Shown here: piece by piece, positions 3,526 to 62,058 of the stretch | Layout: each line of letters begins with the position of its first letter | Position numbering within the stretch: position 1 is the stretch's first letter | DNA from: Patescibacteria group bacterium | GTDB lineage: Bacteria > Patescibacteriota > Minisyncoccia > UBA6257 > Brennerbacteraceae | Direction: 5' to 3' | NCBI GenBank assembly: GCA_040753135.1 | Contig: JBFMGR010000001.1 | Span: forward strand, 59,252-123,251 | Length of the DNA stretch: 64,000 bases | Translations under genes and position numbers: made by a program | The notes under the pieces: model-generated | Databases searched by the model: none | Seen by the model: only the letters and a program-made list of their open reading frames with translations | Told to the model about the DNA's origin: nothing

Positions 3526-3926
3526 AATGATAAATGATGAATGATGAATTATGAATTAAGAGTGATGAATTAGGGAGTTTTGAGAATTATTAATAATATA
3601 CTTTAAATTAGGGGAATAATCAAGGAGCAATCTCTAATATACCAATCTGGGCAAATATACAAATTTAGCAGCGCGTTGCTTTATTATTTATAAATCCATT
3701 AAGAATTTAAATTCGCAAATTGAAAACTGCAAATTAAATTAATTTTAATTTATGCCCCGTTGTTGGAAACTCATCTGTATGGCGGGATAGGGTTTTATTG
3801 CTTCATTGCTTCATTGCTCTGTCCTACCAATTTACTAATCAATACTAATTATACTAATAAATTCATTGGTAGATATTAGCAACAATTGGTAAATTAGTGG
3901 GGCTCTATTAAAAATAATCTCGCTTC

Positions 3927-5313: not shown

Positions 5314-5443
5314 GGTTACTAATATACTAATTTGTACCAATAACTACTTATTTATAAATTATAAATCTTTGTGGAAGAATTAATTAGTTCAGGCCTATTA
5401 GTATAATTAGTATTGATTAGTAAATTGGTAGGCGATTTATACT

Positions 5444-5911: not shown

Positions 5912-5957
5912 ATAGCCTACTAATGTACTAATCTTTACCAATGGTACTAATTTTATA

Positions 5958-6356
5958 ATGGCAGACAGCAGTAAAAAGATAATTGATTTAGTTTATCCTG
6001 AATTAAGTTATAAAATAGTCGGAATTTTGTTTACAGTGTTTAATGAATTGGGTTATGGTTATCAAGAAAAATATTATCAGAAGGCAATTGCTAAAGTTTT
6101 GGGAGACAACAAAATTTATTTCAGGGAACAGGTTTATTTGCCCCTTGAGTTTAATGGGGAGGGAATTGGAAATTATTATTTAGATTTTTTAATAGAAAAT
6201 AAACTAATCTTGGAGATTAAGAGGGGTGATCGATTTTTAAAAAGAAATATTGAACAAGTTTATTCTTATCTGAAAAGATCTAATCTGCGGCTGGGCATTA
6301 TTGCCAATTTTACCAAACAAGGCCTAAGATTTAAACGAATCGTAAATATAAAATAG
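5958..6356 (+). CDS. GxxExxY family protein (PD-(D/E)xK-related), inserted between rpsG and fusA.
   Basis: Literal G-YQ-E-KY-Y motif (ELGYGYQEKYYQKAI); ~130 aa as is typical for this family. Confidence 0.7.
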   Translation: MADSSKKIIDLVYPELSYKIVGILFTVFNELGYGYQEKYYQKAIAKVLGDNKIYFREQVYLPLEFNGEGIGNYYLDFLIENKLILEIKRGDRFLKRNIEQVYSYLKRSNLRLGIIANFTKQGLRFKRIVNIK

Positions 6357-6400
6357 TTAATTAGTAAAATTAGTATTTATTAGTATATTAGTAGGGCTTT

Positions 6401-10235: not shown

Positions 10236-10357
10236 TTGCTATAAGGTTACTAATTCACGAATAATTACAAATTTACAAATGAATGCAAATTAATTTCTTA
10301 CCAATCATAGATTTATAGTATTCGTATATTGGTACAAATTCGTATTTTCGTAAAACT

Positions 10358-13375: not shown

Positions 13376-13503
13376 TTTTATGGATCCCGTTAGAAATTCA
13401 ACCATGATTAAACGAATCAAATTTTTAACCAAAATAAAGTCAACTATTGTCTTTATTTTTTCGAATAATGAATTAACCTTCTTAAATTTCTAACAGGATG
13501 GAC
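13376..13503 (+). mobile_element. MITE-like element (~125 bp) with ~13-bp terminal inverted repeats (cc[c/t]gttagaaatt / aatttctaac[a/g]gg). A second copy lies at 41174–41301. It ends in the ATG of rplV.
   Basis: The two copies are ~75% identical over ~125 nt with conserved inverted termini. The downstream gene's start codon lies inside the 3' terminal repeat (ggATGg). Confidence 0.6.
13380..13493 (+). CDS. Conserved 37-aa small ORF inside the MITE (MDPVRNSTMIKRIKFLTKIKSTIVFIFSNNELTFLNF). Its stop lies 4 nt before the rplV ATG.
   Basis: Frame and length are preserved in the second copy, and many of the nucleotide differences are synonymous. Confidence 0.45.
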   Translation: MDPVRNSTMIKRIKFLTKIKSTIVFIFSNNELTFLNF

Positions 13504-14007: not shown

Positions 14008-14140
14008 AAGGCTGCTAATATACAAATTGATACTAATATACCAATATTAAAACTTGTAAATTGATTCAGTTATATTTATAGATAAATTAATGAGATTAAA
14101 TAATTTGTAGATTTGTAATTATTCGTAAATTTGTAACTTT

Positions 14141-15710: not shown

Positions 15711-15800
15711 TTATTAAAATTACGAAGATATAAATCAAGACAAAATATACAAATATCAAATTCGCAGATTCGTAATAATTTGTAAATTAGTAACCTTATT

Positions 15801-17288: not shown

Positions 17289-17442
17289 GAAGGTAATCGC
17301 GAATATACGAATCAACACAAATATACAAATATCTATCATTTATTTATATCATTTATATGAGTCTCACAAAGTGTATAACATTGAGAGTTGTCTATAATGG
17401 TATTGGTATTATTAGTATTTATTAGTACATTAGTAGGATTAT

Positions 17443-21869: not shown

Positions 21870-22054
21870 AATGATGCTAATCTGCAAATCTTATGCTAAT
21901 CTACGAATTGCGAATAACAATTTATTATACTAATCTACAAATTTTATCCGAATCTACAAATTTGCGAATAACAGAGATTATAAAATTAAATCTATAAACA
22001 ATTTATTCGCATATTAGCTGATTAGCATTAGATTCGTATATTATTGGTATCATA

Positions 22055-22831
22055 ATGATTACGATTAAATCTGATAAGGAAATTAAGCTGCTGCAAGCAG
22101 CTGGCAGGCGCTTGGCTTTAGTTTTGAGTGAATTGAAAAAGCTTTGCTATCCAGGCATCTCTGCGGCCGAATTAGACCGCCGGGCTGGTTATTTGATGAA
22201 AAAATATCATAGCCGGCCTTCGTTTTTTAAATACCGGCCGGCGCCGCATTTAAAACCCTATCCGGCTAATATCTGTGTTTCGGTTAATGAAACAATTGTC
22301 CACGGGATTCCTAAAGAAAAGATAGTTTTTAAAGAAGGAGATTTGGTTACAGTTGACGCTGGTTTGATTTATGCTGAGATGTATGTTGATTCAGCTTTTA
22401 CGGTTGGGATCGGTAAGATTCCTGCTAAAACAAAGAAACTAATCAAAGCAACAGAAAAAGCTTTGGAAGCAGGAATCAAACAATGCTTGGTTGGTAAAAC
22501 CATTGGCGATATTGGTTTTGCTATTGAAACAACCATAAAAAAGTCCGGTTTTTCGGTGGTTAAAGATCTGGTTGGCCATGGAGTTGGCTATGCGGTCCAT
22601 GAAGAGCCGGCAGTGCCCAATTTTGGCAAAAAAAACCAAGGAGTAAAGCTTGAACCCGGCATGATTTTAGCTTTGGAGCCAATGGCCTGCTTCGGTTCTG
22701 GCGAGATTTTAGAGTTAGAAGACGGCAGTTTTATTACTTTGGATAACTCTTTGTCCGCTCAGTCTGAACATACAGTAGTAATCACTCAAGATAAACCATT
22801 AGTGGTAACAGAATTGAAAAGTATCAAGTAG
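22055..22831 (+). CDS. map: Methionine aminopeptidase, type I.
   Basis: VHGIP…DLVTVD…GHGVG…EP…E metal-ligand pattern. Confidence 0.85.
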   Translation: MITIKSDKEIKLLQAAGRRLALVLSELKKLCYPGISAAELDRRAGYLMKKYHSRPSFFKYRPAPHLKPYPANICVSVNETIVHGIPKEKIVFKEGDLVTVDAGLIYAEMYVDSAFTVGIGKIPAKTKKLIKATEKALEAGIKQCLVGKTIGDIGFAIETTIKKSGFSVVKDLVGHGVGYAVHEEPAVPNFGKKNQGVKLEPGMILALEPMACFGSGEILELEDGSFITLDNSLSAQSEHTVVITQDKPLVVTELKSIK

Positions 22832-26771: not shown

Positions 26772-26826
26772 TTTTTTATTTGGTTTTTTACCGCAAATAA
26801 AATTCATAATTCTTTATTTATAATTC

Positions 26827-30474: not shown

Positions 30475-30522
30475 TTTAGTTCCATAATTCATAATTCTTT
30501 ATTCATAATTCATTTAATAGAT

Positions 30523-31944: not shown

Positions 31945-32089
31945 AAAAAATGAATTATGAATAATGAATAATGAATTATGGAATTAAGATAGATTTTAGA
32001 GCCAAAATCTAAAATCTACGTTTTATTGTTATGTCCTCCCGCCAATTTACTAATAATTGGTAAATCAACAGGGTTTTATTGGAAATTGT

Positions 32090-40218: not shown

Positions 40219-40267
40219 TTTCCAGATGGTGCCAATTTACTATTTGATGCAGATAAACAAAAATTCT

Positions 40268-40407
40268 AAATCCTAAATCCTAAATAAATTAAAATGACCA
40301 AAATTGAAAATGTAAAACAGTTTAGAATTTGGATATTGGGATTTTGGAATTGTTTAGGGCTTAGATATTAGAATTTAGAATTTATAGACAAGATTTGTAA
40401 ATTAGCA
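40268..40407 (+). repeat. ~135-nt intergenic repeat, copy A; ~88% identical to 48614–48746.
   Basis: Direct alignment of the two regions; both lie immediately upstream of a + strand gene. Confidence 0.6.
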
Positions 40408-40449
40408 TTATATTATTATCTGTAATCTGTAGATTAGCATCGTATTTTT

Positions 40450-40962: not shown

Positions 40963-40997
40963 GATGAATAAATCCTAATTTTCAATTTACAATTTCT

Positions 40998-41036
40998 CTG
41001 CCAGAGGCAGATCCGCCTTTGGCGGACAATTTCCAG
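40998..41036. repeat. ggcggatccgcc-family double-hairpin element (variant gcagatccgcctttggcggacaatttccag), copy 1 of 5.
   Basis: Shares a core with 45584, 46859, 48588 and 49468. Confidence 0.5.
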
Positions 41037-41173
41037 TGAATTTCAATAATTTAATCTCAAATCACAAACACTAAAATTCAGATAAATTTTAATGATTATA
41101 ATTCAAATTTCTTGAAGTCTGAAAATTTAAAAACTGGAGCTTGATTGAGAATTGATAATTGAAAATTAAAGTT

Positions 41174-41301
41174 TGCCATGGATCCCGTTAGAAATTCAAC
41201 GATAATTAAACGAATTAAGTTTTTGATTAAGGCAAAACCGACAACTATCTTCGTATTATTGAATAAAGAATTAACTTGCTTAAATTTCTAACGGGATGGA
41301 T
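41174..41301 (+). mobile_element. Second copy of the MITE-like element; it ends in the ATG of rmuC.
   Basis: Aligns to 13376–13503 with conserved terminal inverted repeats. Confidence 0.6.
41178..41291 (+). CDS. Small ORF, copy 2 (MDPVRNSTIIKRIKFLIKAKPTTIFVLLNKELTCLNF).
   Basis: Same 37-codon length and frame as 13380–13493; its stop lies 4 nt before the rmuC ATG. Confidence 0.45.
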   Translation: MDPVRNSTIIKRIKFLIKAKPTTIFVLLNKELTCLNF

Positions 41302-42336
41302 ATTATTTTAGTGATTGTAATTTTGGGGTTTGTGGTTTTGGCGTTTATTTTTGGCTTTGTCATTTATCTGCTTTTAAAAAAACAGCAAGACGACCAGATT
41401 CAAAATCAGTCAATCAATTCTTTAGGCGAGTCAATCTCCAAGATGCAGGTTCAGCTGATGGAGCATTTGGCCAATCAATTAAGCGCGGTTAGGGGCAGTT
41501 TGGATAATACTGTGGGCAAAAACATTCAGCGGTTTTCCGAAGAGTTTGTTGGCGTTAAAGAAGATTTAAAAAGAGTCGGCGAGATTTACCAAAGCGTTGA
41601 CAATCTTCAAAAAATCTTTAAATCGCCAAAGCTACGGGGCAACTGGGGCGAGGCATCTCTTGAGCATCTGCTTTCCCAGCACTATCCCAAAGAGCTTTAC
41701 GACCTTCAGCATATGTTTTCTTCAGGCGAACGGGCCGATGCGGCGTTTAAACTGCCCGATGGCAAGATAATTGCGATTGATGCCAAATTCCCTTTGGAAA
41801 ACTTTTCCAAACTTCAAGTGGTGGAAACTGATCTGGAGAAAGAAGCAATAGAAAAAACCTTTATCCAGGATGTTAAAGCCCGGATTGACGAGATTGGCCA
41901 AAAATACATTTTGCCCTCAGAGGGGACTTTGGATTACGCGATTATGTATGTGCCGGCTGAAGCGGTTTATTATGAGATCGTTAATCCGGCGACCAAAGCA
42001 AGCAAGGACGACTTGATTTCTTATGCTTGGTCTAAGAAAGTGATTATTGCTTCGCCAAATCTGTTTTACCTGACTTTAAAAACAGTTGAGCATTGGTTTC
42101 GTGATGTTCAGATTTCTAAACAAACCCAAGGTATTTTAAAGAGATTTGAGAGAATCAGAAAAGACGGCGAAAAATTAGCTGAAGATTTCCGGCTTTTGGG
42201 CAAGCACCTGGGCAATGCCCAGTCAGCTTTTAACAACACTGAAAAACGGCTTGATTTAATGGTTGGCAAAGTTGACCAATTAACCTCAATTAAAGTTAAA
42301 GGCGAGCTAGAAGAACCGGAAGGGGAAAGTGAATGA
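41296..42336 (+). CDS. rmuC: DNA recombination protein RmuC.
   Basis: N-terminal transmembrane segment, long coiled coil, C-terminal nuclease-like region (…AIDAKFPLENF…). Confidence 0.6.
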   Translation: MDIILVIVILGFVVLAFIFGFVIYLLLKKQQDDQIQNQSINSLGESISKMQVQLMEHLANQLSAVRGSLDNTVGKNIQRFSEEFVGVKEDLKRVGEIYQSVDNLQKIFKSPKLRGNWGEASLEHLLSQHYPKELYDLQHMFSSGERADAAFKLPDGKIIAIDAKFPLENFSKLQVVETDLEKEAIEKTFIQDVKARIDEIGQKYILPSEGTLDYAIMYVPAEAVYYEIVNPATKASKDDLISYAWSKKVIIASPNLFYLTLKTVEHWFRDVQISKQTQGILKRFERIRKDGEKLAEDFRLLGKHLGNAQSAFNNTEKRLDLMVGKVDQLTSIKVKGELEEPEGESE

Positions 42337-42545
42337 TGAATCAGGAATGATGAATTAATCTCCTTAATATTTTATCAGCGAATAGCGGATTTATACGAAT
42401 AAATGAATGAAATAAATCAAAAGTCAAAATGACAGATTAAAATGTAAAAAAATCTCAAAATTTGAAAAAATTTAAACCTCTGAAAATTGAAATATTGAAA
42501 ATTCATTGAAAATTGAAAATTAGAAATTAGAAATTCTTTAGGTTT

Positions 42546-43283
42546 ATGCTAGACACCACCCATGTTTTAACTGGTTTGGTTATTGGCAAGTATCTGAAAA
42601 ATCCTATCTTGGCTTTTGGCGCTGGAGTTTTGTCCCATTTTGTTTTAGACGCCATTCCTCATTGGGATGGAACAAAGACGCTTAATGCGTCTTTGTTCCG
42701 AAGCGAAGCGAAGGTGGGAGAAAAGACTTTTTCAAAGTCTTTTCTCCGCAGTGAGGCGAGCGAAGAAACAAAGAGAGCTGGCGTAGCTTTGTTGCGAGCC
42801 GAACAAGGTGGAACAAAGACGCTTAATGCGTCTTTGTTCCGAAGCGAAGCGGAGGTGGAAGGAAAGACGCTTAATGCGTCTTTGTTCCGAGCGGAGCGAG
42901 ATGGAGAAGGGGGGCTAAATGATGCTGAATGCCGAATAAGATTCACCCGAGAGGGCAAGATTATTTTAGGCCTAGATATCTTAATCAGTTTGATTATTTT
43001 TTTATTTCTATCAATCAAAGGCCCGCTCTGGCCCGATTTTCCTAACCCTAATTCGTTATTCATCATTCTTCATTCTAATTTGTCCTGGGTTGCCGGAGTT
43101 TTTGGCGCTTTATTGCCGGACATTTTATTATTGGCTTATATTTTTTATCCTTCAGCCAAATTAAAAAAGCTTTCTGTTTTTGAATTCCATAAAAATATCC
43201 AAAGAAAAATTCCAATGATTCCGGGGTTGGTCTTTCAGTTAATCTGGATTAGTTTTTGCTTGTATTTTTTTGTTTTATCTTGA
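42546..43283 (+). CDS. YdjM/DUF457-like membrane-bound metal-dependent hydrolase, carrying an in-frame ~75-aa hairpin-repeat insertion.
   Basis: N-terminal HVLTGLVIGKYL…SHFVLDAIPHWD and C-terminal GALLPDILLLAY motifs; the middle is encoded by the tandem hairpin array. Confidence 0.5.
   Translation: MLDTTHVLTGLVIGKYLKNPILAFGAGVLSHFVLDAIPHWDGTKTLNASLFRSEAKVGEKTFSKSFLRSEASEETKRAGVALLRAEQGGTKTLNASLFRSEAEVEGKTLNASLFRAERDGEGGLNDAECRIRFTREGKIILGLDILISLIIFLFLSIKGPLWPDFPNPNSLFIILHSNLSWVAGVFGALLPDILLLAYIFYPSAKLKKLSVFEFHKNIQRKIPMIPGLVFQLIWISFCLYFFVLS
42669..42890. repeat. Array of five ~45-bp units, each holding a perfect hairpin (for example ggaacaaagacgc-ttaat-gcgtctttgttcc), embedded in-frame in the ydjM-like gene.
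   Basis: Units 1, 4 and 5 are near-identical. Units 2 and 3 differ in sequence but stay palindromic, i.e. the changes are compensatory. Confidence 0.7.
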
Positions 43284-45520: not shown

Positions 45521-45583
45521 AAGAGATGATCTTGTAAATTTGCTTCTTAAGTAATAAAATGGGCTTTATGCCAGAGTAGTTTC

Positions 45584-45617
45584 TGCCAGGGGCGGATCCG
45601 CCCTTGGCGGGCAGTGT
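45584..45617. repeat. ggcggatccgcc double-hairpin element, copy 2.
   Basis: ctgccaggggcggatccgcccttggcgggcagtg. Confidence 0.5.
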
Positions 45618-45644
45618 ATTTCTTGAAACAAAACATTATCTTTT

Positions 45645-45717
45645 GCCGAGATAGCTCAGTTGGCAGAGCACGCCCTTGGTAAGGGCGAGGTCCCGGGTTC
45701 AAGTCCCGGTCTCGGCT
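45645..45717 (+). tRNA. tRNA-Thr (anticodon GGT).
   Basis: Acceptor GCCGAGA/TCTCGGC, anticodon loop TTGGTAA, T-arm CCGGG-TTCAAGT-CCCGG. Confidence 0.8.
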
Positions 45718-46528: not shown

Positions 46529-47269
46529 ATGTTTAATAACTTCTCTACCAACCAAGAATTAGTTGGTCATTTGAAATCTATCGGGGTTTTGAAAACTCCT
46601 CTGATTATCTCTGCGTTTGAAAAGATTGACCGGAAAGATTTTGTCCCCAAACAGTTTGAAAATGAAGCTTATGGAGATTATCCTTTGTCAATTGGTCAAG
46701 GTCAGACGATTTCCCAACCCTACACCGTGGCATTTATGCTGGAGTTATTACAACCTCAGCCAGGAGAAAAAATCTTAGATATTGGTGCTGGGTCAGGATG
46801 GACTACCGCTCTTTTGGCTTATATAATAAGCCAACAAGGCAGCACCAATTACCAATTACTCCGCCGGGGGCGGATCCGCGCTTGGCGGACAATTTCCAAA
46901 GAAATCCCAATATCCAATAATCAAAATGAATTAGGCAAGGTTTATGCGATAGAAGTTATTCCAGAATTATGTGAATTTGGAGCGCAAAATTGCAACAAGT
47001 ATAAATTTGTCTCTGATGGGGTAGCTAAGTTTTTTTGCCAGGACGGGAATCTGGGTTTAAAAGATTACGCTCCTTTTGACAAAATTTTAGCCAGCGCCGC
47101 TTTAAGCAAAAAAGAGCTGCCCCAGGCTTGGAAAGACCAGCTGAAGGTTAGGGGCAGGATTGTCTGCCCAATAATGAATAGCATTTTTGTTTTTGATAAA
47201 ATAAAACAAGATAAATGGCAAGAAGAAGAGCATTACGGCTTTAATTTTGTACCGCTGGTGAAGAGGTAA
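46529..47269 (+). CDS. pcm: Protein-L-isoaspartate O-methyltransferase, with an in-frame insertion derived from the ggcggatccgcc repeat.
   Basis: GQTISQPYTVAFMLELL…ILDIGAGSGW methyltransferase motif I. The insertion LRRGRIRAWRTISKE is encoded by 46859–46900. Confidence 0.7.
   Translation: MFNNFSTNQELVGHLKSIGVLKTPLIISAFEKIDRKDFVPKQFENEAYGDYPLSIGQGQTISQPYTVAFMLELLQPQPGEKILDIGAGSGWTTALLAYIISQQGSTNYQLLRRGRIRAWRTISKEIPISNNQNELGKVYAIEVIPELCEFGAQNCNKYKFVSDGVAKFFCQDGNLGLKDYAPFDKILASAALSKKELPQAWKDQLKVRGRIVCPIMNSIFVFDKIKQDKWQEEEHYGFNFVPLVKR
46859..46900. repeat. ggcggatccgcc double-hairpin element, copy 3, lying inside pcm.
   Basis: ctccgccgggggcggatccgcgcttggcggacaatttccaaag. Confidence 0.55.
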
Positions 47270-48475: not shown

Positions 48476-48587
48476 ATGATGCTAATCGGCGAATTTAATG
48501 CTAATCAACGAATATATTAATAAAAGAATTAAGTACTATGATGCTAATATGTGAATGAACACAAATTCTGAATCCTAAGCGCTTAAG

Positions 48588-48620
48588 CCGGGGGCTGTTC
48601 GCCTCTGGCGGAAAATCCTA
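48588..48620. repeat. Degenerate copy 4 of the ggcgg…ggcgg element (gccgggggctgttcgcctctggcggaaaatcc).
   Basis: Partial match to the family consensus. Confidence 0.35.
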
Positions 48621-48746
48621 AATAAATTCAAATGACCAAAATTAAAAATCCAGAACTGTTTAGAATTTAGGCATTGGGATTTTGGAATTATTTAGGGCTT
48701 AGATATTAGAATTTAGAATTTATAGATAAGATTCGTAGATTAGTGT
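48614..48746 (+). repeat. ~135-nt intergenic repeat, copy B, upstream of ftsE.
   Basis: ~88% identity to 40268–40407. Confidence 0.6.
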
Positions 48747-48753
48747 CGCGTTT

Positions 48754-49443: not shown

Positions 49444-49467
49444 TTTTCAATTTTCATTGAATTTTCC

Positions 49468-49505
49468 CGTCAGGGGCGGATCCGCCTCTGGCGGGCAATG
49501 ATTCA
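49468..49505. repeat. ggcggatccgcc double-hairpin element, copy 5.
   Basis: ccgtcaggggcggatccgcctctggcgggcaatgattc. Confidence 0.5.
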
Positions 49506-49572
49506 ATCTTTGAAAATTAGGGGATTGATAGCTGATTGGGAATTGTGAATTGGTAATTAGCAATTTTAAACC

Positions 49573-54186: not shown

Positions 54187-54228
54187 GTGAATTATGAATT
54201 ATGAATAGTGAATCTAAAATAATGAATT

Positions 54229-55857
54229 ATGGATAATGGGACAGACAGAATTTTAATTGGCGAGGCCGAGTTCCGGAATAAGCGGACGCCGTTTGGAATT
54301 AAGATTGACGACTTAAGGCGGCATATTTATGCGGTTGGCCTGACCGGCGTGGGCAAGACGACTTTTTTGGAAACAATGGCGCTTTACCATATTCAGCACA
54401 ATAAGGGCGTGGGGATTATTGACCCACACGGAGAGTTTTCTGATCGGCTGATGGATTATATTCCCAAAGAAAGAATTGATGATGTGGTTTATATCAATCC
54501 ATCAGACACCAATTATCCACTGGCTTTTAATGTAATGGAGAGCGTTGATTTTGAGCAGAGGCACTTAGTTGCTTCGAGTTTGTTGTCAGTGTTTAAAAAA
54601 ATCTGGCCTGATGTTTGGTCAGCCCGGATGGAGTATATCTTAAACAATACTTTTTTAGCGCTTTTAGAGTATCCGGACTCAACCCTTTTGGGCATCAGCC
54701 GGATGCTGGCAGATAAGGATTATCGGAAGATGATTGTTTCCAGGCTGATGGATCCGGTGGTCAAAGCCTTCTGGACCCAGGAATTTGCCCGCTACCATGA
54801 CCGGTTTCAAGTTGAAGCAATTGCGCCTTTACAGAATAAAGTTGGCCAATTCACTGCTAATCCTTTAGTGAGAAATATTATCGGCCAGAAAAAGACTAAG
54901 CTTAATTTAAGAGAGATAATTGATACCAGAAAAATTTTGATTGTCCGTCTGCCGGTAGGTTTGGTCGGCGAATCCAATGCCTCGCTTTTAGGCGGTTTGT
55001 TGGTGACCAAACTTCAGCAAGCCGCGATGTCCAGGATTGATATTCCGGAGAACCAGCGGGAAGATTTTTGTTTAGTAATTGACGAGTTTCAGAACTTTGC
55101 CACCGAATCATTTATTAAGATTTTGTCAGAGGCAAGAAAATACCATCTGAATTTGGTGATTGGCCATCAGTATTTAGACCAGATTCCTGAAGAAATCTTG
55201 GCCGCAATTTTGGGCAATGTCGGCACTTATGTTGCTTTTCGGATCGGCCCGGTTGACGCGGAAAAATTAGAACCGCAGTTTTTGCCCCAGATCAACGTTC
55301 ACGAGTTAGTTAATCTGCCGAACCATTATTTTTACATCAAGATGATGATTGACGGCGTGACTTCGCCGCCGTTTTTAGGCACAACTTTACTGCCGCCGCC
55401 TTTGCCGGTTCAAAGTTATAAAGAAGAGATTATCAAGCTCTCTCAATTAAAATACTCTACCCAGAAAGGCTTTATTGAGCAGGAGATTCAAAAATGGCTT
55501 GAGCCGGTTGAGCCGGGAAAAGAAGAAAAATTAGAGCAAGAGCCGGAAGTTTGGGAGCCGGTAATGCTCCATGAAGCAGTTTGTTCCTCCTGCGGCAAAG
55601 ATATTCGCTTGCCTTTTGAGCCGGATCCGAATCGGCCGGTTTATTGCAAAAAATGCCTGAAAAAAGTTAAAAAGCCAGAAGCAGAAAAAAAGCCAGCTAA
55701 AGCCAAAGCGAAAAAGCCGGTTTCGGCAAAGCCAAAAACAGAACCAAAAGCAGAAGAAAAAAAGTCCGGTTTAGGCGAGATGCTGAAAAAAATTATCAGT
55801 TCGCAGAAACCAGAAAAAGAAACAGATTCTCTTGAATCCCAAGAACAAGAATCTTAA
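54229..55857 (+). CDS. VirD4/TraD/TrwB-like P-loop ATPase (type IV secretion system DNA-binding-domain-like) with a C-terminal CxxC…CxxC zinc ribbon and a Lys-rich tail. It has no N-terminal transmembrane segment.
   Basis: Walker A GLTGVGKTT, Walker B LVIDEFQNF, HQYLDQI; C-terminus CSSCGK…RPVYCKKC followed by a KPAKAKAKKP tail. Confidence 0.55.
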   Translation: MDNGTDRILIGEAEFRNKRTPFGIKIDDLRRHIYAVGLTGVGKTTFLETMALYHIQHNKGVGIIDPHGEFSDRLMDYIPKERIDDVVYINPSDTNYPLAFNVMESVDFEQRHLVASSLLSVFKKIWPDVWSARMEYILNNTFLALLEYPDSTLLGISRMLADKDYRKMIVSRLMDPVVKAFWTQEFARYHDRFQVEAIAPLQNKVGQFTANPLVRNIIGQKKTKLNLREIIDTRKILIVRLPVGLVGESNASLLGGLLVTKLQQAAMSRIDIPENQREDFCLVIDEFQNFATESFIKILSEARKYHLNLVIGHQYLDQIPEEILAAILGNVGTYVAFRIGPVDAEKLEPQFLPQINVHELVNLPNHYFYIKMMIDGVTSPPFLGTTLLPPPLPVQSYKEEIIKLSQLKYSTQKGFIEQEIQKWLEPVEPGKEEKLEQEPEVWEPVMLHEAVCSSCGKDIRLPFEPDPNRPVYCKKCLKKVKKPEAEKKPAKAKAKKPVSAKPKTEPKAEEKKSGLGEMLKKIISSQKPEKETDSLESQEQES

Positions 55858-55910: not shown

Positions 55911-57059
55911 GTGAAAAATAAAAATCAAAATAAAATCGTATTCGTCGCGATGAGCGGCGGGGTTGATAGTTCTGTTGCCGCCTTGCTTTTGAAGCGCCAA
56001 GGGCTCAATGTTGTTGGCGTGTTTATGAGGAACTGGACGGTTAAGGTCCCGGGTTTGATTCATTGCCCCTGGGAAGAAGACCAACGTTTTGCCCGCCAAG
56101 CGGCAGCCCAGATCGGAATTCCTTTATATACCTGGGATTTTGAAAAAGAATATCAGGAGGAGGTGTTTAAATATTTTTTGGAGAGCTATAAAAAGGGCGA
56201 GACTCCGAATCCGGATGTGGTTTGCAATAAAAAGATTAAGTTTGGCTTGTTTTTGAAAAAAGCTAAAAAGCTGGGCGCGGATTTTATTGCCACTGGCCAC
56301 TATGCCCGTTTGAAACGGGCAAGAATTAAGAATAAAGAATTAAGAATAAAGAAAAATAAACCATCATTCATAATTCGTAATTCATTATTCATGGCTCATG
56401 ATGTCAACAAAGACCAATCTTATTTTCTCTGGACTTTGACTCAAAAGCAATTAAAACACTGCCTTTTTCCTTTGGGCGATTTGACTAAGCCAGAGGTAAG
56501 AAAAATCGCTAAAAGAGCCGGTTTAGTCACAGCGGCTAGAAAAGATTCCCAAGGGCTTTGCTTTGTCGGGCCAATCAGTTTAAAAGAGTTTTTAAGGCCA
56601 TATCTTGAGGAAAAATCAGGCAGGATTGTTTTAGTTGAGTTTAATAAAAATGGCATTAAAAAAGAAAGATTAATTGGCGGGCATCGGGGCGTCCATCTGT
56701 TTACTTTGGGCCAGCGGCAGGGGATTAGGGTTGGCGGCGGCACGCCTTATTACGTTGCCAAAAAAGAGATTAAAAAAAACATCTTGTATGTTTGCGCCAA
56801 AAAAGATCTGCCTAAGTTTTTTCCAACCAAGATAAAGATCAAGCAAGCTAACTGGATTAATTCAGGATCGGTTAGGTTTCCTTTAAAATGCCGGGCGCGG
56901 TATCGCTATCGCCAGCCGCTTCAATCAGTTAAGGTGATTAAAAACAAAACCAATAAGTTTGAGGTTGTGTTTACTAAGCCGGCAGTGGCGATCACTCCGG
57001 GCCAGTCAATCGTGTTTTATAAGAATAAAACCTTGTTAGGCGGAGGAGTGATTGAATAA
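55911..57059 (+). CDS. mnmA: tRNA-specific 2-thiouridylase MnmA, with an in-frame low-complexity insertion (…RIKNKELRIKKNKPSFIIRNSLF…).
   Basis: PP-loop VAMSGGVDSSVAA, catalytic Cys motifs, DQSYFL. Confidence 0.85.
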   Translation: MKNKNQNKIVFVAMSGGVDSSVAALLLKRQGLNVVGVFMRNWTVKVPGLIHCPWEEDQRFARQAAAQIGIPLYTWDFEKEYQEEVFKYFLESYKKGETPNPDVVCNKKIKFGLFLKKAKKLGADFIATGHYARLKRARIKNKELRIKKNKPSFIIRNSLFMAHDVNKDQSYFLWTLTQKQLKHCLFPLGDLTKPEVRKIAKRAGLVTAARKDSQGLCFVGPISLKEFLRPYLEEKSGRIVLVEFNKNGIKKERLIGGHRGVHLFTLGQRQGIRVGGGTPYYVAKKEIKKNILYVCAKKDLPKFFPTKIKIKQANWINSGSVRFPLKCRARYRYRQPLQSVKVIKNKTNKFEVVFTKPAVAITPGQSIVFYKNKTLLGGGVIE

Positions 57060-57116: not shown

Positions 57117-57425
57117 TTATGCGTGGGGTTGGGGAAGGGGCTTGTTGTTATGAAAAGCCGTTTGAGCGGCTTCTTCAAAAAGTTCACCAATCCCTTTTAT
57201 ACCATTAAGCGACGTTGTCTGGCCGATTATTATCACTGCGTTTCCAGCGATAATAATTGAGCCAGTTACGTTTTTGTATTGAAAATCCGCAGTGTCGGTT
57301 TTCCATTGAATCTTTAAATTTTTGACACCGAGTTTTATGTATAAAAGGTTAGTGAAGAGGCCGCGGCGGAACAGAGCCTCTTCCCATGGCAGGTTGTGTT
57401 TGATTAAGATATTAAACCTTGCCAT
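57117..57425 (-). CDS. Hypothetical protein.
   Basis: 102-aa ORF between convergent/divergent neighbours; no motif. Confidence 0.25.
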   Translation of the reverse strand: MARFNILIKHNLPWEEALFRRGLFTNLLYIKLGVKNLKIQWKTDTADFQYKNVTGSIIIAGNAVIIIGQTTSLNGIKGIGELFEEAAQTAFHNNKPLPQPHA

Positions 57426-57538: not shown

Positions 57539-59437
57539 ATGATTATTGCTCAAGAGTTAAGGCAAAAATATTTAGAATTTTTTAAGCAAAAAGGGCATCA
57601 GATTATTCCGAGCGCTTCTTTGATTCCGGAAAATGACCCGACCGTGCTTTTCACTACCGCGGGGATGCATCCTTTAGTGCCTTATTTATTAGGTGAAAAA
57701 CATCCGGCCGGTAAACGTTTGGTTGATGTTCAGAAATGTCTCCGGACCGTTGATATTGAAGAAGTTGGCGACCAAGTCCATCAGACTTTTTTTGAGATGC
57801 TGGGCAACTGGTCTTTGGGGGATTATTTTAAAAAAGAGGCAATTGAGTGGAGTTATGAGTTTTTGATTTCTAAAGATTGGCTGGGACTTGATAAAAATAG
57901 ATTAGCGGTTTCAGTATTTGAAGGCGACCAGGACGCGCCGTTTGACCAAGAAGCTTATAGTGTTTGGCTGAATTTGGGCATTCCTGAAAAAAGAATCGCC
58001 AAACTGCCGAAAAAAAACAACTGGTGGGGACCGGCCGGTCAAACCGGACCTTGCGGCCCAGATACCGAGATGTTTTATTGGGTTAGCAATGAACCAGCGC
58101 CGGAAAAGTTTGACCCCGATGATTCTCGCTGGGTTGAGGTCTGGAACGATGTGTTTATGGAGTATAATAAAAAAGTCAAAAGTCAAAAGTCAAAAGTCAA
58201 AAATGAAATTCGAGATTCAAAAATAGAAAAATCTAAAAATTTAAATAAGGAAGCATACGAATACGAATCTTTAAAACAAAAAAATATTGATACTGGCATG
58301 GGTTTAGAAAGGGTTTTGGCGGTTTTGAACGGACTTGATGATAATTACAGAACCGAGCTGTTTTGGCCAATTATTGAAAAAGTTGAGGAGCTGTCGGGCA
58401 AAAAATACGGCGACTCTGAAGAGATAACCAAAGCAATGCGGATTATTGCTGACCATCTTAAGGCGGCAATTTTTATCTTAGCTGAACGAATTGAACCGTC
58501 AAATGTTGAGCGAGGTTATGTTTTAAGGAGACTAATCAGGCGGGCGATTCGTTACGCCAAGCAATTAGAGATTAATCAAGCTTTTTGTTTTAAGTTGGTT
58601 GAGCCGGCAATTAAAATTTATCAAGATGTTTACCCGGAGCTTTTCCAAAATAAAGATTTTATTGAAGAGCAGTTAGTCAGAGAAGAAGAGAGGTTTAGCA
58701 CAACTTTAACTAAGGGTTTAAATGTTTTAAAGAAAGAGGTCCAAAAAATGAAGCAGACAGGTAAGAAAAGCTTGTCCGGAGATATTGGCAAGATAGCTTT
58801 TAATTTCTTCCAGAATTATGGTTTTCCGCCCGAATTATTCTTAGAAGAGATCGCCAAAGAAATTCCCCATAGCAAAGAGGGTGTTTTGGCGTCTTTTAAT
58901 CAGGCTTTTAAAAAACACCAAGAATTATCCCGCCAGAAAGCGGAGCAAAAATTCAAGGGCGGTTTGGCTGACCACTCTGAAATCAGCAAAAAATACCATA
59001 CTGCCACCCATTTATTGCAAGCGGCCTTGCGCCAAATTTTAAGCGACCAGATTTATCAAAAAGGCTCAAACATCACTGCCGAGCGTTTGCGATTTGATTT
59101 TAATTATTCTGAACCGATCAGTTCGGAACAATTAAAAGAGATAGAAGGCTTGGTTAATCAGAAAATTCAAGAACATCTGCCGGTTCATTTTGAAGAAATG
59201 GCAGTTGATAAAGCGAAGAAAATCGGCGCTTTGGGCGTGTTTGGGAGCAAGTATAGCGAGAAAGTTAAAGTTTATTTTATTGGTCCTTCGATGAACTCAG
59301 GGCAAATTCCTTTTTCTATAGAGATCTGCGGCGGCCCGCATGTAGAAAATACAAAAGAGATTGGTAAAATTAAAATTGCCAAACTGGAATCAATCGGCCA
59401 AGGAATAAAAAGAATTCGAGCAGTGGTTGAAGTTTAA
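57539..59437 (+). CDS. alaS: Alanine--tRNA ligase, short form (~632 aa; catalytic, tRNA-binding and editing-core domains). It carries an in-frame low-complexity insertion at 58170–58290.
   Basis: IPSASLIP…DPTVLFTTAGM…; editing-domain HTATHLL…CGGPHV. Confidence 0.8.
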   Translation: MIIAQELRQKYLEFFKQKGHQIIPSASLIPENDPTVLFTTAGMHPLVPYLLGEKHPAGKRLVDVQKCLRTVDIEEVGDQVHQTFFEMLGNWSLGDYFKKEAIEWSYEFLISKDWLGLDKNRLAVSVFEGDQDAPFDQEAYSVWLNLGIPEKRIAKLPKKNNWWGPAGQTGPCGPDTEMFYWVSNEPAPEKFDPDDSRWVEVWNDVFMEYNKKVKSQKSKVKNEIRDSKIEKSKNLNKEAYEYESLKQKNIDTGMGLERVLAVLNGLDDNYRTELFWPIIEKVEELSGKKYGDSEEITKAMRIIADHLKAAIFILAERIEPSNVERGYVLRRLIRRAIRYAKQLEINQAFCFKLVEPAIKIYQDVYPELFQNKDFIEEQLVREEERFSTTLTKGLNVLKKEVQKMKQTGKKSLSGDIGKIAFNFFQNYGFPPELFLEEIAKEIPHSKEGVLASFNQAFKKHQELSRQKAEQKFKGGLADHSEISKKYHTATHLLQAALRQILSDQIYQKGSNITAERLRFDFNYSEPISSEQLKEIEGLVNQKIQEHLPVHFEEMAVDKAKKIGALGVFGSKYSEKVKVYFIGPSMNSGQIPFSIEICGGPHVENTKEIGKIKIAKLESIGQGIKRIRAVVEV

Positions 59438-61971: not shown

Positions 61972-62058
61972 ATTAGAATTATGAATTATGAATAAGGAAT
62001 TAAGGGGTTTGGCTTAAAACGTTTAATTAATCTATTTATTCTAGACTCCGAATATACT

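What the first reader, a model, noticed from the sequence alone, without database searches (positions are those of the whole stretch)
56330..56400. Intergenic-style low-complexity words inserted in-frame into essential genes (mnmA, alaS)
Most intergenic spacers in this window are built from short AT-rich words: tactaat/tacgaat/tacaaat/tgctaat and gaattat/gaaatta/ggaatta.
The same material appears inside coding sequence, in-frame. In mnmA the stretch aagaattaagaataaagaattaagaataaagaaaaataaaccatcattcataattcgtaattcattattcatg encodes …RIKNKELRIKKNKPSFIIRNSLFM….
In alaS (58170–58290) the stretch aaagtcaaaagtcaaaagtcaaaagtcaaaaatgaaattcgagattc…gcatacgaatacgaatc encodes …KVKSQKSKVKNEIRDSKIEK….
This suggests that the process generating the spacer composition (replication slippage, or a small insertion element) also expands within genes, and that the insertions are tolerated as surface loops.
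Basis: seen in the sequence. Interest (0 to 1): 0.5.

Follow-up and report, generated by a model that had tools for sequence, protein, structure and literature searches.

The report
Repeat elements translated inside essential genes
In this ultra-small (Patescibacteria) bacterium, the short repeat modules that fill about half of the gaps between genes also sit in-frame inside at least four conserved genes, where they are read as extra floppy surface loops; this resembles the palindromic elements of Rickettsia but has a different build and occurs in a different phylum.

Summary
The window comes from a Patescibacteria MAG. It holds 28 period-7 tandem arrays against 0.65 expected, and no other period is enriched. 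Almost all of them lie in spacers. TACNAAT words occur 81 times against 31 expected.

The mnmA stretch (56321-56393) is a palindromic pair of four plus four heptamer units. It adds about 15 residues at a beta-hairpin tip. The alaS stretch (58178-58261) adds about 25 residues and starts with a perfect (AAAAGTC)x4.6. Both are AT-rich and in-frame. Both are low-confidence loops in otherwise confident models.

I found two further in-frame cases. The pcm gene carries a composite element, heptamer arrays plus a GC palindrome, that recurs in three spacers of the window and inside mnmA of a relative. A membrane-protein gene carries a 48-nt palindromic unit amplified in place.

The TACNAAT arrays are the inverted ends of a small cassette encoding a GxxExxY PD-(D/E)XK nuclease (5912-6400). 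The same layout was seen in 50 of 61 metagenome loci.

The same protein loops are insertion hot spots across the phylum.

Best reading: dispersed palindromic repeat modules become fixed in-frame in permissive loops and are then remodelled by slippage. Pure slippage remains possible for alaS. I found no published description.

The parts
55911..57059 (+). mnmA (tRNA 2-thiouridine synthase), host gene
   Evidence: 100% identical to an NCBI Patescibacteria MAG protein. Matches PDB MnmA structures at E 1e-91.
56305..56319 (+). small palindrome CCCGTTTGAAACGGG just 5' of the insert; encodes part of ARLKRA
   Evidence: Predicted as a hairpin in the DNA fold. Relatives have a ccgccNNNggcgg palindrome at the same place.
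56321..56354 (+). mnmA insert, left arm: TAAGAAT AAAGAAT TAAGAAT AAAGAAA (period 7/14)
   Evidence: TRF reports period 14 at 100% match. The (GAATNNN)x4 pattern matches with 0 mismatches.
56366..56393 (+). mnmA insert, right arm: ATTCATA ATTCGTA ATTCATT ATTCATG. It is the inverted copy of the left arm. Its last two units overlap the native SLFM codons.
   Evidence: Inverted repeat. Pattern matches. The unit whose junction would put TAA in frame is the one that deviates.
57539..59437 (+). alaS (short Patescibacteria alanyl-tRNA synthetase), host gene
58178..58261 (+). alaS insert (residues 214-241). It comprises (AAAAGTC)x4.6 at 58171-58202, decayed ATTCGAG ATTCAAA at 58208-58221, and TACGAATACGAAT at 58256-58268.
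   Evidence: Alignment A2. TRF reports 100% match. TACNAAT hits. pLDDT below 50 at residues 217-236.
46529..47269 (+). pcm (protein-L-isoaspartate O-methyltransferase), host gene of a further in-frame insert
46841..46930 (+). pcm insert (residues 105-134): (CAATTAC)x2, then the GC palindrome ccgccgggggcggatccgcgcttggcgg, then acaatttcc and a further array
   Evidence: No counterpart in solved PCMT structures or in the relatives P0394 and P0398. The same element occurs in spacers and in mnmA of L031.
40975..41065 (+). spacer copy of the composite element (arrays plus GC palindrome), 3' of a dnaJ-like gene
   Evidence: Hairpin z = -3.2.
45560..45650 (+). spacer copy of the GC palindrome element, 3' of groEL
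   Evidence: Flagged as terminator-like.
49446..49536 (+). spacer copy of the composite element
   Evidence: Hairpin z = -5.2.
42705..42905 (+). in-frame amplified 48-nt palindromic unit (about 67 residues) in membrane-protein ORF 42546..43283
   Evidence: TRF. Inverted repeats. Homologues match only query residues 1-45 and 123-243.
5912..6400 (+). cassette between rpsG and fusA: TACNAAT x4 (5918-5951), GxxExxY PD-(D/E)XK nuclease gene (5958-6356), ATTNGTA x4 (6360-6393)
   Evidence: Pfam PF13366 at E 1e-28. TIGR04256. Word positions. The same layout occurs in 50 of 61 metagenome loci.
5314..5443 (+). nuclease-less pair of the same four plus four words in the rpsL-rpsG spacer. Similar pairs lie at 3825-3891, 10248-10344, 14013-14135, 15748-15792, 17306-17435 and 21875-22049.
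   Evidence: Alignments A6 and A7 show shared unit spacing of 8/10/9 mirrored in the other arm.
54188..54231 (+). example of a solo (GAATNNN)n spacer array. Others lie at 2700-2745, 3532-3570, 26802-26826, 30487-30511, 31952-31976, 42331-42355 and 61976-62000.

Best explanation
**What it is.** This genome, and many other Patescibacteria, carry a family of small palindromic repeat modules. Each module has arms built from three to five heptamer words. Most words fit T-R-N-N-A-A-T: TACNAAT, TATGAAT/GAATTAT, TAGGAAT. Some modules also have a GC-rich palindrome at the centre.

**Shown.**
- These modules fill about half of the spacers.
- The TACNAAT type forms the inverted ends of a cassette that encodes a GxxExxY PD-(D/E)XK nuclease. 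That cassette occurs in many genomic contexts.
- Nuclease-less pairs with the same four plus four architecture lie in neighbouring spacers.
- The same kinds of module lie in-frame and stop-free inside mnmA, pcm and, in part, alaS. They sit at loop positions that carry other such modules in other lineages.

**Inferred.**
- Modules are copied or moved into new sites, with the nuclease cassette as the likely autonomous partner.
- Only copies survive that land in a permissive surface loop, have a length divisible by three and have an open frame.
- Afterwards, point mutation removes in-frame stops. Slippage expands, contracts and homogenises the units.
- The encoded peptide is incidental. It is a disordered extension of a beta-hairpin tip.

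**alaS.** The insert looks like an older lineage-specific loop insertion of this kind. Its 5' part has recently expanded by slippage of a 7-nt unit.
For: **Same element in spacer and in gene.** The GC-palindrome composite in pcm (46841-46930) aligns with spacer copies at 40975, 45560 and 49446. It also aligns with the mnmA insert of relative L031 at 90% over 41 nt, E 1e-9. This sequence is too complex to arise by slippage. It is read in different frames in pcm (LLRRGRIRAWRT) and in L031 mnmA (GGGSAVGGQF).

**Word family and architecture.**
- The mnmA arms match (GAATNNN)x4, as do nine spacer sites.
- One unit is the exact word ATTCGTA.
- The four plus four inverted layout equals that of the cassette ends.

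**Cassette.** Of 61 non-redundant metagenome loci encoding the nuclease, 50 have at least two words on both sides. In 38 of those, the dominant word is the same in both arms although it differs between elements. The cassettes lie in many contexts.

**DNA-level signatures.**
- Codon-aligned nucleotide identity of the mnmA insert to L115 and L116 is 0.81-0.83, against 0.58-0.59 for the rest of the gene.
- Identical codons at identical residues are 14 of 16 in the insert, against 89 of 183 and 69 of 178 elsewhere.
- The same trend holds for alaS against L002: 0.78 against 0.63.
- A period of 7 is not a multiple of 3. Only the used frame of the + strand is open, and the units that would give an in-frame TAA are the ones that deviate.

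**Hot spots and turnover.**
- The MnmA loop ranges from 14 to 118 residues, and many of the longer loops read as translated heptamer arrays (for example ISNFQFP).
- The PCMT loop ranges from 8 to 64 residues.
- Two Brennerbacteria mnmA genes with flanks about 97% or more identical carry unrelated arrays in this loop.
- The nearest syntenic relative, L001, has neither spacer arrays nor inserts.

**Tolerated loops.** pLDDT is below 50 only at the inserts.
Against: - No target-site duplication was identified; cassette ends were inspected by eye in one locus only (L043). No filled-site versus empty-site pair at short evolutionary distance is available for the window's own inserts, because the nearest relative is only 68% identical.
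- The exact (GAATNNN)3...(ATTCNNN)3 palindrome occurs only in mnmA of the window, L115 and L116. It occurs in no spacer of the 116 fetched loci. One old insertion kept by some constraint is therefore not excluded for this particular insert.
- The alaS insert has no inverted repeat and no significant fold. Its unit AAAAGTC is outside the word family.
- Local amplification without any element does occur. The 48-nt unit is present once in the closest homologue.
- The period-7 array at 43047-43078 encodes a conserved peptide and is not an insertion.
- Mobility of the cassette and recognition of the words by the nuclease are inferred from distribution only.
- L032 has the palindrome in mnmA but no word clusters in 21 kb of flanks.
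Confidence: 0.6

Rival explanations
1. **Purely local origin.** The arrays arise where they are. Replication slippage of AT-rich seeds makes tandem copies. Template switching or fold-back copying makes the inverted arm. No element moves. Spacers and loops simply share the same mutational bias.
For: - (AAAAGTC)x4.6 in alaS is 100% perfect.
- The 14-nt units in mnmA are identical within each genome but differ between genomes. This is concerted evolution.
- The last units of the mnmA right arm are native SLFM codons that could have seeded expansion.
- The 48-nt unit in ORF 42546 was amplified in place from a single copy seen in homologue P0242.
- The mnmA palindrome type is found in no spacer.
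Against: - Slippage should not favour a single unit length, yet only period 7 is enriched.
- Most units share the word T-R-N-N-A-A-T.
- The GC-palindrome composite in pcm and in L031 mnmA is complex sequence shared with spacer copies in another genome.
- The four plus four architecture with mirrored 8/10/9 spacing is shared by the cassette and by nuclease-less pairs.
- L032 and L034 carry unrelated arrays between near-identical flanks.
Confidence: 0.25
2. **Adaptive loop extensions.** The inserts are selected at the protein level. For example, basic Lys/Arg-rich arms could help the two tRNA-binding enzymes grip tRNA. The DNA periodicity would then be a by-product of AT-rich codon use.
For: - The inserts are K/R-rich, and mnmA and alaS both encode tRNA-binding enzymes.
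- Similar inserts persist in proteins only 51-59% identical.
- The same loops are extended in many lineages.
Against: - The same element is read in different frames in different genes.
- Synonymous positions are more conserved than in the rest of the gene.
- The DNA is palindromic with period 7.
- The inserts are predicted to be disordered.
- Close relatives lack them or carry unrelated sequences.
- Identical material lies in non-coding spacers and in a non-tRNA enzyme (pcm) and a membrane protein.
Confidence: 0.1
3. **Artefact or not translated.** The inserts could be assembly or gene-calling errors. They could also be removed before the protein is made, by an intron, an intein or ribosomal bypass.
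For: There is no direct evidence for this. No expression or peptide data exist for this organism.
Against: - The same phenomenon appears in many independent assemblies from NCBI, JGI, ENA and Logan.
- All inserts have lengths divisible by three and are stop-free only in the host frame. Units that would give stops are altered. That constraint would be pointless if the inserts were removed.
- Rfam finds only tRNAs in the window.
Confidence: 0.03

Closest known systems
Rickettsia palindromic elements (RPEs; Ogata et al. 2000, as summarised in PMC10969869)
   Same: Both are palindromic repeats present in spacers and inserted in-frame in unrelated housekeeping genes. Both are compatible with the protein fold. 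Both occur in a small, host-dependent bacterium.
   Different: RPEs are families of about 100-150 bp, each with a conserved consensus and a conserved encoded peptide. Here the arms are arrays of 7-nt words whose sequence varies. Inserts are 45-100 nt. The same element is read in different frames. A candidate autonomous partner, the nuclease cassette, exists. The phylum is unrelated.
Bacterial MITEs that make in-frame fusions (ERIC, BOX, Coxiella QMITE; PMC10969869, PMC5896051)
   Same: Both are small, non-coding, multi-copy elements with inverted ends. Both are mostly intergenic and sometimes intragenic.
   Different: No target-site duplication was identified. The ends are iterated heptamers rather than a unique inverted repeat. 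The related gene-bearing element encodes a PD-(D/E)XK nuclease of unknown function, not a known transposase (PMC3424549).
Free-standing homing-endonuclease genes, and transposon ends with several binding sites per end (Tn7 and Mu ends, foldback elements). This comparison rests on my own knowledge.
   Same: A small nuclease gene is wedged exactly between two conserved genes (rpsG stop, fusA start). Each end carries four oriented copies of a short word with fixed spacing.
   Different: Neither homing nor transposition has been shown. The PDDEXK_3 (GxxExxY) family has no assigned function.
Slippage of simple sequence repeats, and low-complexity inserts in proteins of AT-rich genomes (for example Plasmodium; 7-bp repeats in Haemophilus hmw promoters). 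This comparison rests on my own knowledge.
   Same: The alaS array is a perfect short tandem repeat. The inserts are low-complexity, K/N-rich and located in loops.
   Different: Only one unit length (7) is enriched. The arrays come as inverted pairs. They share words with a gene-bearing cassette and occur with a complex GC palindrome.

Membership tests
Rickettsia palindromic elements (RPE) | Copies both in spacers and in-frame within ORFs of unrelated genes | tested here: met
   Spacer arrays are documented. In-frame copies lie in mnmA, alaS and pcm.
Rickettsia palindromic elements (RPE) | Palindromic (hairpin-forming) sequence | tested here: inconclusive
   mnmA: z = -4.2. pcm: z = -1.9. alaS: z = 0.0 and no inverted repeat.
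Rickettsia palindromic elements (RPE) | Element of about 100-150 bp with a family consensus and a conserved encoded peptide | tested here: not met
   Inserts are 45-100 nt. Unit sequence varies between copies. The same element is read in different frames.
Rickettsia palindromic elements (RPE) | Sequence similarity to RPE consensus sequences | not tested
   No RPE consensus sequences were available in the tools used.
MITE | Terminal inverted repeats, small size, many copies | tested here: met
   Four plus four inverted words at at least eight spacer sites.
MITE | Target-site duplication | not tested
   None was noticed when the cassette ends were inspected by eye (one locus, L043, compared in detail). 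No systematic TSD search was run, no comparison was made at the in-gene inserts, and no empty sites were available.
MITE | A related autonomous element encoding the transposase | tested here: inconclusive
   A gene-bearing cassette with the same ends exists. Its protein is a PD-(D/E)XK nuclease of unknown function, not a known transposase.
Simple-sequence (slippage) repeat | Head-to-tail, near-perfect copies of a short unit | tested here: met
   alaS (AAAAGTC)x4.6 at 100% match. mnmA 14-mer x2.4 at 100% match.
Simple-sequence (slippage) repeat | Copy-number variation between close strains | not testable with these tools
   The nearest relative is 68% identical. No read data were available.
GxxExxY / PDDEXK_3 protein family (nuclease gene 5958-6356) | Match above the curated cut-off of PF13366 and TIGR04256 | tested here: met
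   100.3 bits against a cut-off of 22. 100 bits against a cut-off of 35.

The most novel reading that the evidence does not exclude
Patescibacteria harbour an undescribed family of mobile elements. The autonomous form would be a small cassette encoding a GxxExxY PD-(D/E)XK nuclease, flanked by four plus four heptamer words. Its nuclease-less derivatives, sometimes with a GC palindrome at the centre, would colonise spacers. Across the phylum they would also enter the same permissive loops of essential enzymes (MnmA, AlaRS, PCMT and others). This would make them a standing source of new protein loops. The strict 7-nt unit would reflect the way the nuclease, or a partner, reads DNA.
Probability: 0.35. 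Interest if true: 0.8.

Novelty: new variant of a known kind. Interest (0 to 1): 0.62.

Why it matters
Selfish repeats translated inside essential genes have been known mainly from Rickettsia. The same outcome appears here with a different element architecture, and across a phylum that makes up a large share of bacterial diversity. That suggests a general route by which reduced genomes gain new protein loops.

- **Practical consequence.** The odd low-complexity segments in many Patescibacteria protein predictions (ISNFQFP, KNQKSK, GGSAxGG and similar) are explained. Alignments, phylogenies and structure predictions should mask them.
- **Testable role for an uncharacterised family.** The PDDEXK_3 (GxxExxY) family has no assigned function. 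This work suggests it is the nuclease of a small mobile cassette, which can be tested.
- **Open question.** It is not clear why only 7-nt units are made.

Tried and rejected
- **Uninformative scan.** I scanned genome contigs for the 21-mer shared by the alaS inserts of the window and P0201. It gave 25 hits in unrelated AT-rich taxa and none in Patescibacteria.
- **A candidate case withdrawn.** I first counted the heptamer array at 43047-43078 (NPNSLFIILHSN) as a further insertion. Alignment with homologues shows it is a conserved segment.
- **Similarity judged not to prove homology.** I considered that the alaS insert is homologous to the spacer at 42398-42476 (76% over 62 nt). Both are A-rich period-7 arrays, so the similarity may reflect shared periodicity.
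- **Intron, intein or bypass rejected.** Rfam finds only tRNAs. The frame and stop pattern argues for translation.
- **Terminator role not established.** Only one of the three spacer copies of the GC palindrome is flagged as terminator-like by the simple scan. The total count of such sites is near the shuffle expectation.
- **TIGR-Tas arrays set aside.** A paper on these arrays surfaced. Their unit size and build do not fit, from my own knowledge of them.
- **Literature.** Searches found no description of these arrays, of in-frame repeats in Patescibacteria, or of a mobile role for PDDEXK_3.
- **Not possible with these tools.** I could not measure the distance of the MnmA loop from bound tRNA.
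Full report
**Source and observation**

The window is about 40% G+C. Its MnmA, AlaS and PCMT are 100% identical to proteins of an NCBI 'Patescibacteria group bacterium' MAG on a contig of 130,869 bp.

The quoted sequences are present and translate as stated. mnmA is 55911..57059, with the insert stretch at 56321-56393. alaS is 57539..59437, with the stretch at 58171-58270.

The spacers do hold conspicuous words.
- Tandem Repeats Finder lists dozens of period-7 arrays.
- With a fixed criterion (at least 76% self-match over four units), period 7 gives 28 arrays. Dinucleotide-preserving shuffles give 0.65. Periods 5, 6 and 8-14 give 0-2, which is background.
- 23 of the 28 lie in non-coding DNA. 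Of the five flagged as coding, one is really the groES-groEL spacer and one spans the rplC/rplD junction.
- (GAATNNN)x4 occurs 17 times against 0.03 expected.
- TACNAAT occurs 81 times against 30.8 expected, typically as three or four forward words followed by three or four reverse words.
- 27 of 59 spacers of 30 nt or more carry such arrays. The accurate description is therefore 'about half', not 'most'.

**Anatomy of the two inserts**

*mnmA*
- The left arm is TAAGAAT AAAGAAT TAAGAAT AAAGAAA. An 11-nt spacer separates the last unit of the left arm from the first unit of the right arm (18 nt between the arms as the repeat finder defines them). The right arm is ATTCATA ATTCGTA ATTCATT ATTCATG.
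- This is an imperfect inverted repeat. It folds far better than shuffles, with z = -4.2.
- It is the only place in the window where four forward and four reverse units of this type are adjacent.
- G+C is 19%, against 41% for the gene.
- Only the used frame is open on the + strand.
- (ATTCGTA)n would give TAA at every junction. The one junction that falls in frame reads TCA TTA instead. The third 14-mer of the left arm, which would give an in-frame TAA, is also altered.

*alaS*
- The insert begins with a perfect (AAAAGTC)x4.6.
- It also contains decayed ATTCGAG ATTCAAA units and ends with TACGAATACGAAT.
- It has no inverted repeat and no significant fold.

**Delimiting the insertions**

*MnmA*
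- Against S. pneumoniae MnmA (2hma), 15 residues have no counterpart. They fall between the two strands of a beta-hairpin.
- In the AlphaFold model (mean pLDDT 89.8), only residues 140-152 and the N-terminus fall below 50. The native strands are 133-135 and 158-160.

*AlaS*
- The loop between WNDVFM and DTGMG is 18 residues in 103 of 120 relatives and 43 here.
- In the model it is a low-confidence loop (residues 217-236) between two long strands.

This is not met.

**The loops are hot spots across the phylum**
- Among 120 Patescibacteria MnmA sequences, this loop ranges from 14 to 118 residues.
- Many of the longer loops read as translated heptamer arrays. Examples are FPISNFQFPNKFQISNSK, IKNQKSKIK and RISNFEIDSKLKIQNSK. 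Others read as translated GC-rich palindromes, such as GGGSAVGGQF.
- The DNA confirms this. L029 has (gaatttc)x3 followed by (aaaattc)x3. L030 has (aatttcc)x4. L031 has arrays plus GC palindromes.
- The PCMT loop behaves the same way. Its baseline is 8 residues and it reaches 64.
- Two Brennerbacteria mnmA genes are 89% identical overall and about 97-100% identical next to the loop. In the loop they carry unrelated sequences. One has a 100-nt TACGAAT...ATTCGTA palindrome (hairpin z = -2.7). The other has (acctacaactaaca)x2.5.
- The nearest syntenic relative of the window is L001, at 68% protein identity. It has short ordinary spacers, no arrays and no inserts in either gene.

**More in-frame cases in the window**

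*pcm (46529..47269)*
- Residues 105-134 have no counterpart in solved PCMT structures or in the relatives P0394 and P0398.
- The DNA (46841-46930) is (caattac)x2, then ccgccgggggcggatccgcgcttggcgg, then acaatttcc and further array units.
- The same composite occurs in spacers at 40975, 45560 and 49446. It also occurs inside mnmA of L031, at 90% over 41 nt with E 1e-9.
- It is read in different frames in the two genes.
- PCMT relatives show nested states: no insert, arrays only, and arrays plus a central palindrome.

*ORF 42546..43283*
- Homologues are 140-195 residues long. They match only residues 1-45 and 123-243 of the query.
- The extra 67 or so residues are a 48-nt palindromic unit amplified four to five times. 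The closest homologue has a single copy of the unit.

*A caution*
- The heptamer array at 43047-43078 in the same ORF encodes a conserved segment and is not an insertion.

**What the spacer words belong to**
- The 132-residue gene at 5958-6356 lies exactly between rpsG and fusA. It is flanked by TACNAAT x4 and ATTNGTA x4.
- It encodes a PD-(D/E)XK nuclease of family PDDEXK_3 / GxxExxY.
- A metagenome scan returned 80 loci encoding relatives.
- Of 61 non-redundant loci with full flanks, 50 have at least two such words on both sides, most often four plus four. In 38 of those the dominant word is the same in both arms.
- The word differs between elements: TACTAAT, TACGAAT, TACGAAA, TACGGAT/TACAGAT.
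- The cassettes sit in many contexts as well as the rpsG-fusA site. Their right end regularly stops 3-10 nt before the next start codon.
- Nuclease-less pairs in the window share the four plus four layout and the mirrored 8/10/9 spacing.
- The only published comment I found on this family gives its function as unknown and notes multiple transfers between divisions (PMC3424549).

**Relation of the focal inserts to this family**
- All eight mnmA units are NNNGAAT or ATTCNNN. One is the exact word ATTCGTA.
- MnmA of L115 and L116 is 53-54% identical to the window's MnmA overall. At the same site they carry the same module with canonical TGCGAAT and TATGAAT units.
- Codon-aligned nucleotide identity is 0.81-0.83 in the insert and 0.58-0.59 elsewhere. 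Identical codons at identical residues are 14 of 16 in the insert, against about 45% elsewhere.
- The alaS insert is shared with P0201, which is 59% identical overall. The shared part includes an identical 25-mer. It is likewise the most DNA-conserved stretch of the gene, at 0.78 against 0.63.
- This pattern fits inserts younger than the host-gene divergence, or a nucleotide-level constraint. It does not fit peptide-level selection alone.
- Against a recent dispersed origin of the mnmA module: this exact palindrome type was found only in mnmA, in no spacer of 116 loci.

**Mechanism**
- The best-supported account is that dispersed palindromic modules become fixed in-frame in permissive loops and are then remodelled by slippage. 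The TACNAAT type is tied to a probably mobile nuclease cassette.
- Shown: the shared sequences, the architecture, the loop positions, the stop-avoidance pattern and the hot spots.
- Inferred: movement of the modules, the role of the nuclease, and the order of events.
- Pure local slippage plus template switching remains a serious rival for alaS and cannot be excluded for mnmA.
- Protein-level adaptation is unlikely as the origin. A later benefit of basic loops in tRNA enzymes is not excluded.

**Comparison with what is known**
- The closest analogue is the Rickettsia palindromic elements, which insert in-frame into many housekeeping genes (PMC10969869).
- The present system differs in several ways. 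The arms are iterated 7-nt words rather than a long consensus. The size is smaller. The same element is used in different frames. A nuclease cassette with the same ends is present. The phylum is different.
- I therefore do not file it as an RPE or as a proven MITE. No target-site duplication was identified (cassette ends inspected by eye only) and the partner protein is not a known transposase.
- Seven literature searches found no description of it.

**Unexplained**
- Why only 7-nt units are enriched.
- Whether the hot-spot loops are targeted or merely permissive.
- What the solo arrays next to start codons do.

Noticed in passing
window 5912-6400: A GxxExxY PD-(D/E)XK nuclease gene lies exactly between rpsG and fusA. 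It is flanked by four TACNAAT and four ATTNGTA words. The same layout occurs in 50 of 61 metagenome loci and in many contexts, so it is probably a mobile cassette.
   Followed up: yes
window 46841-46930 (in pcm): A 30-residue in-frame insert is made of heptamer arrays plus a GC palindrome. The same element occurs in three spacers of the window and in mnmA of relative L031.
   Followed up: yes
window 42671-42910 (in ORF 42546..43283): A 48-nt palindromic unit (hairpin ggaacaaagacgcttaatgcgtctttgttcc plus linker gaagcgaagcgaaggtg) is amplified about five times in-frame in a membrane-protein gene. The closest homologue has one unit.
   Followed up: yes
window 43047-43078: A perfect (ATTCNNN)x4 array encodes NPNSLFIILHSN, a segment conserved in homologues. 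A period-7 pattern alone is therefore not proof of insertion. Alternatively, the segment is an ancient fixed array.
   Followed up: partly
window 13380-13497 and 41190-41295: Two copies of an element of about 110 nt with inverted ends cccgttagaaatt...aatttctaacggg. Both lie in spacers.
   Followed up: no
window 40219-40449 and 48476-48753: Two spacers share a repeat of about 230 nt. It is built from reverse and forward TTAGAAT-type arrays around a core ...aaatgaccaaaatt.... Each ends in TACNAAT-type words.
   Followed up: no
window 21877-21982: A 53-nt unit made of TGCTAAT, TACGAAT and TACAAAT words is itself duplicated in tandem in the spacer before the gene at 22055.
   Followed up: no
window 26802-26826, 30487-30511, 31952-31976, 3532-3570: Solo (ATTCNNN)n arrays, read on the gene's strand, lie directly upstream of start codons (of 26827, rplU, recR and a minus-strand gene). 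The right end of the nuclease cassette likewise ends ..GTAGG.. 3-10 nt before the next ATG. A possible role in translation initiation is untested.
   Followed up: no
window 57117-57425 (-): A 102-residue minus-strand ORF lies between mnmA and alaS, with a weak PHA_gran_rgn match. It is present at the same place in L031 but absent from the closest relative L001.
   Followed up: partly
L029 11017-11055; L030 8718-8760 and 9048-9085; L115 4229-4263; L116 1815-1844: Further period-7 arrays lie inside genes of other Patescibacteria: the C-terminal part of mnmA, and an Aminotran_5 (PF00266) aminotransferase-family gene. Their unit sequences differ again (GTTTCAT, CTTCCGT, CTATAAA, GAATNAT).
   Followed up: partly
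A1 columns 101-190 and 613-640; A2 columns 165-190, 245-255, 830-880: Other loops of MnmA and AlaS in relatives carry GC-rich repeat-like inserts, such as PSTSSGQAPSTSSGQA, SGQAVPKD and DVASRSPDSGRRGRK. These point to further families of translated repeats.
   Followed up: no
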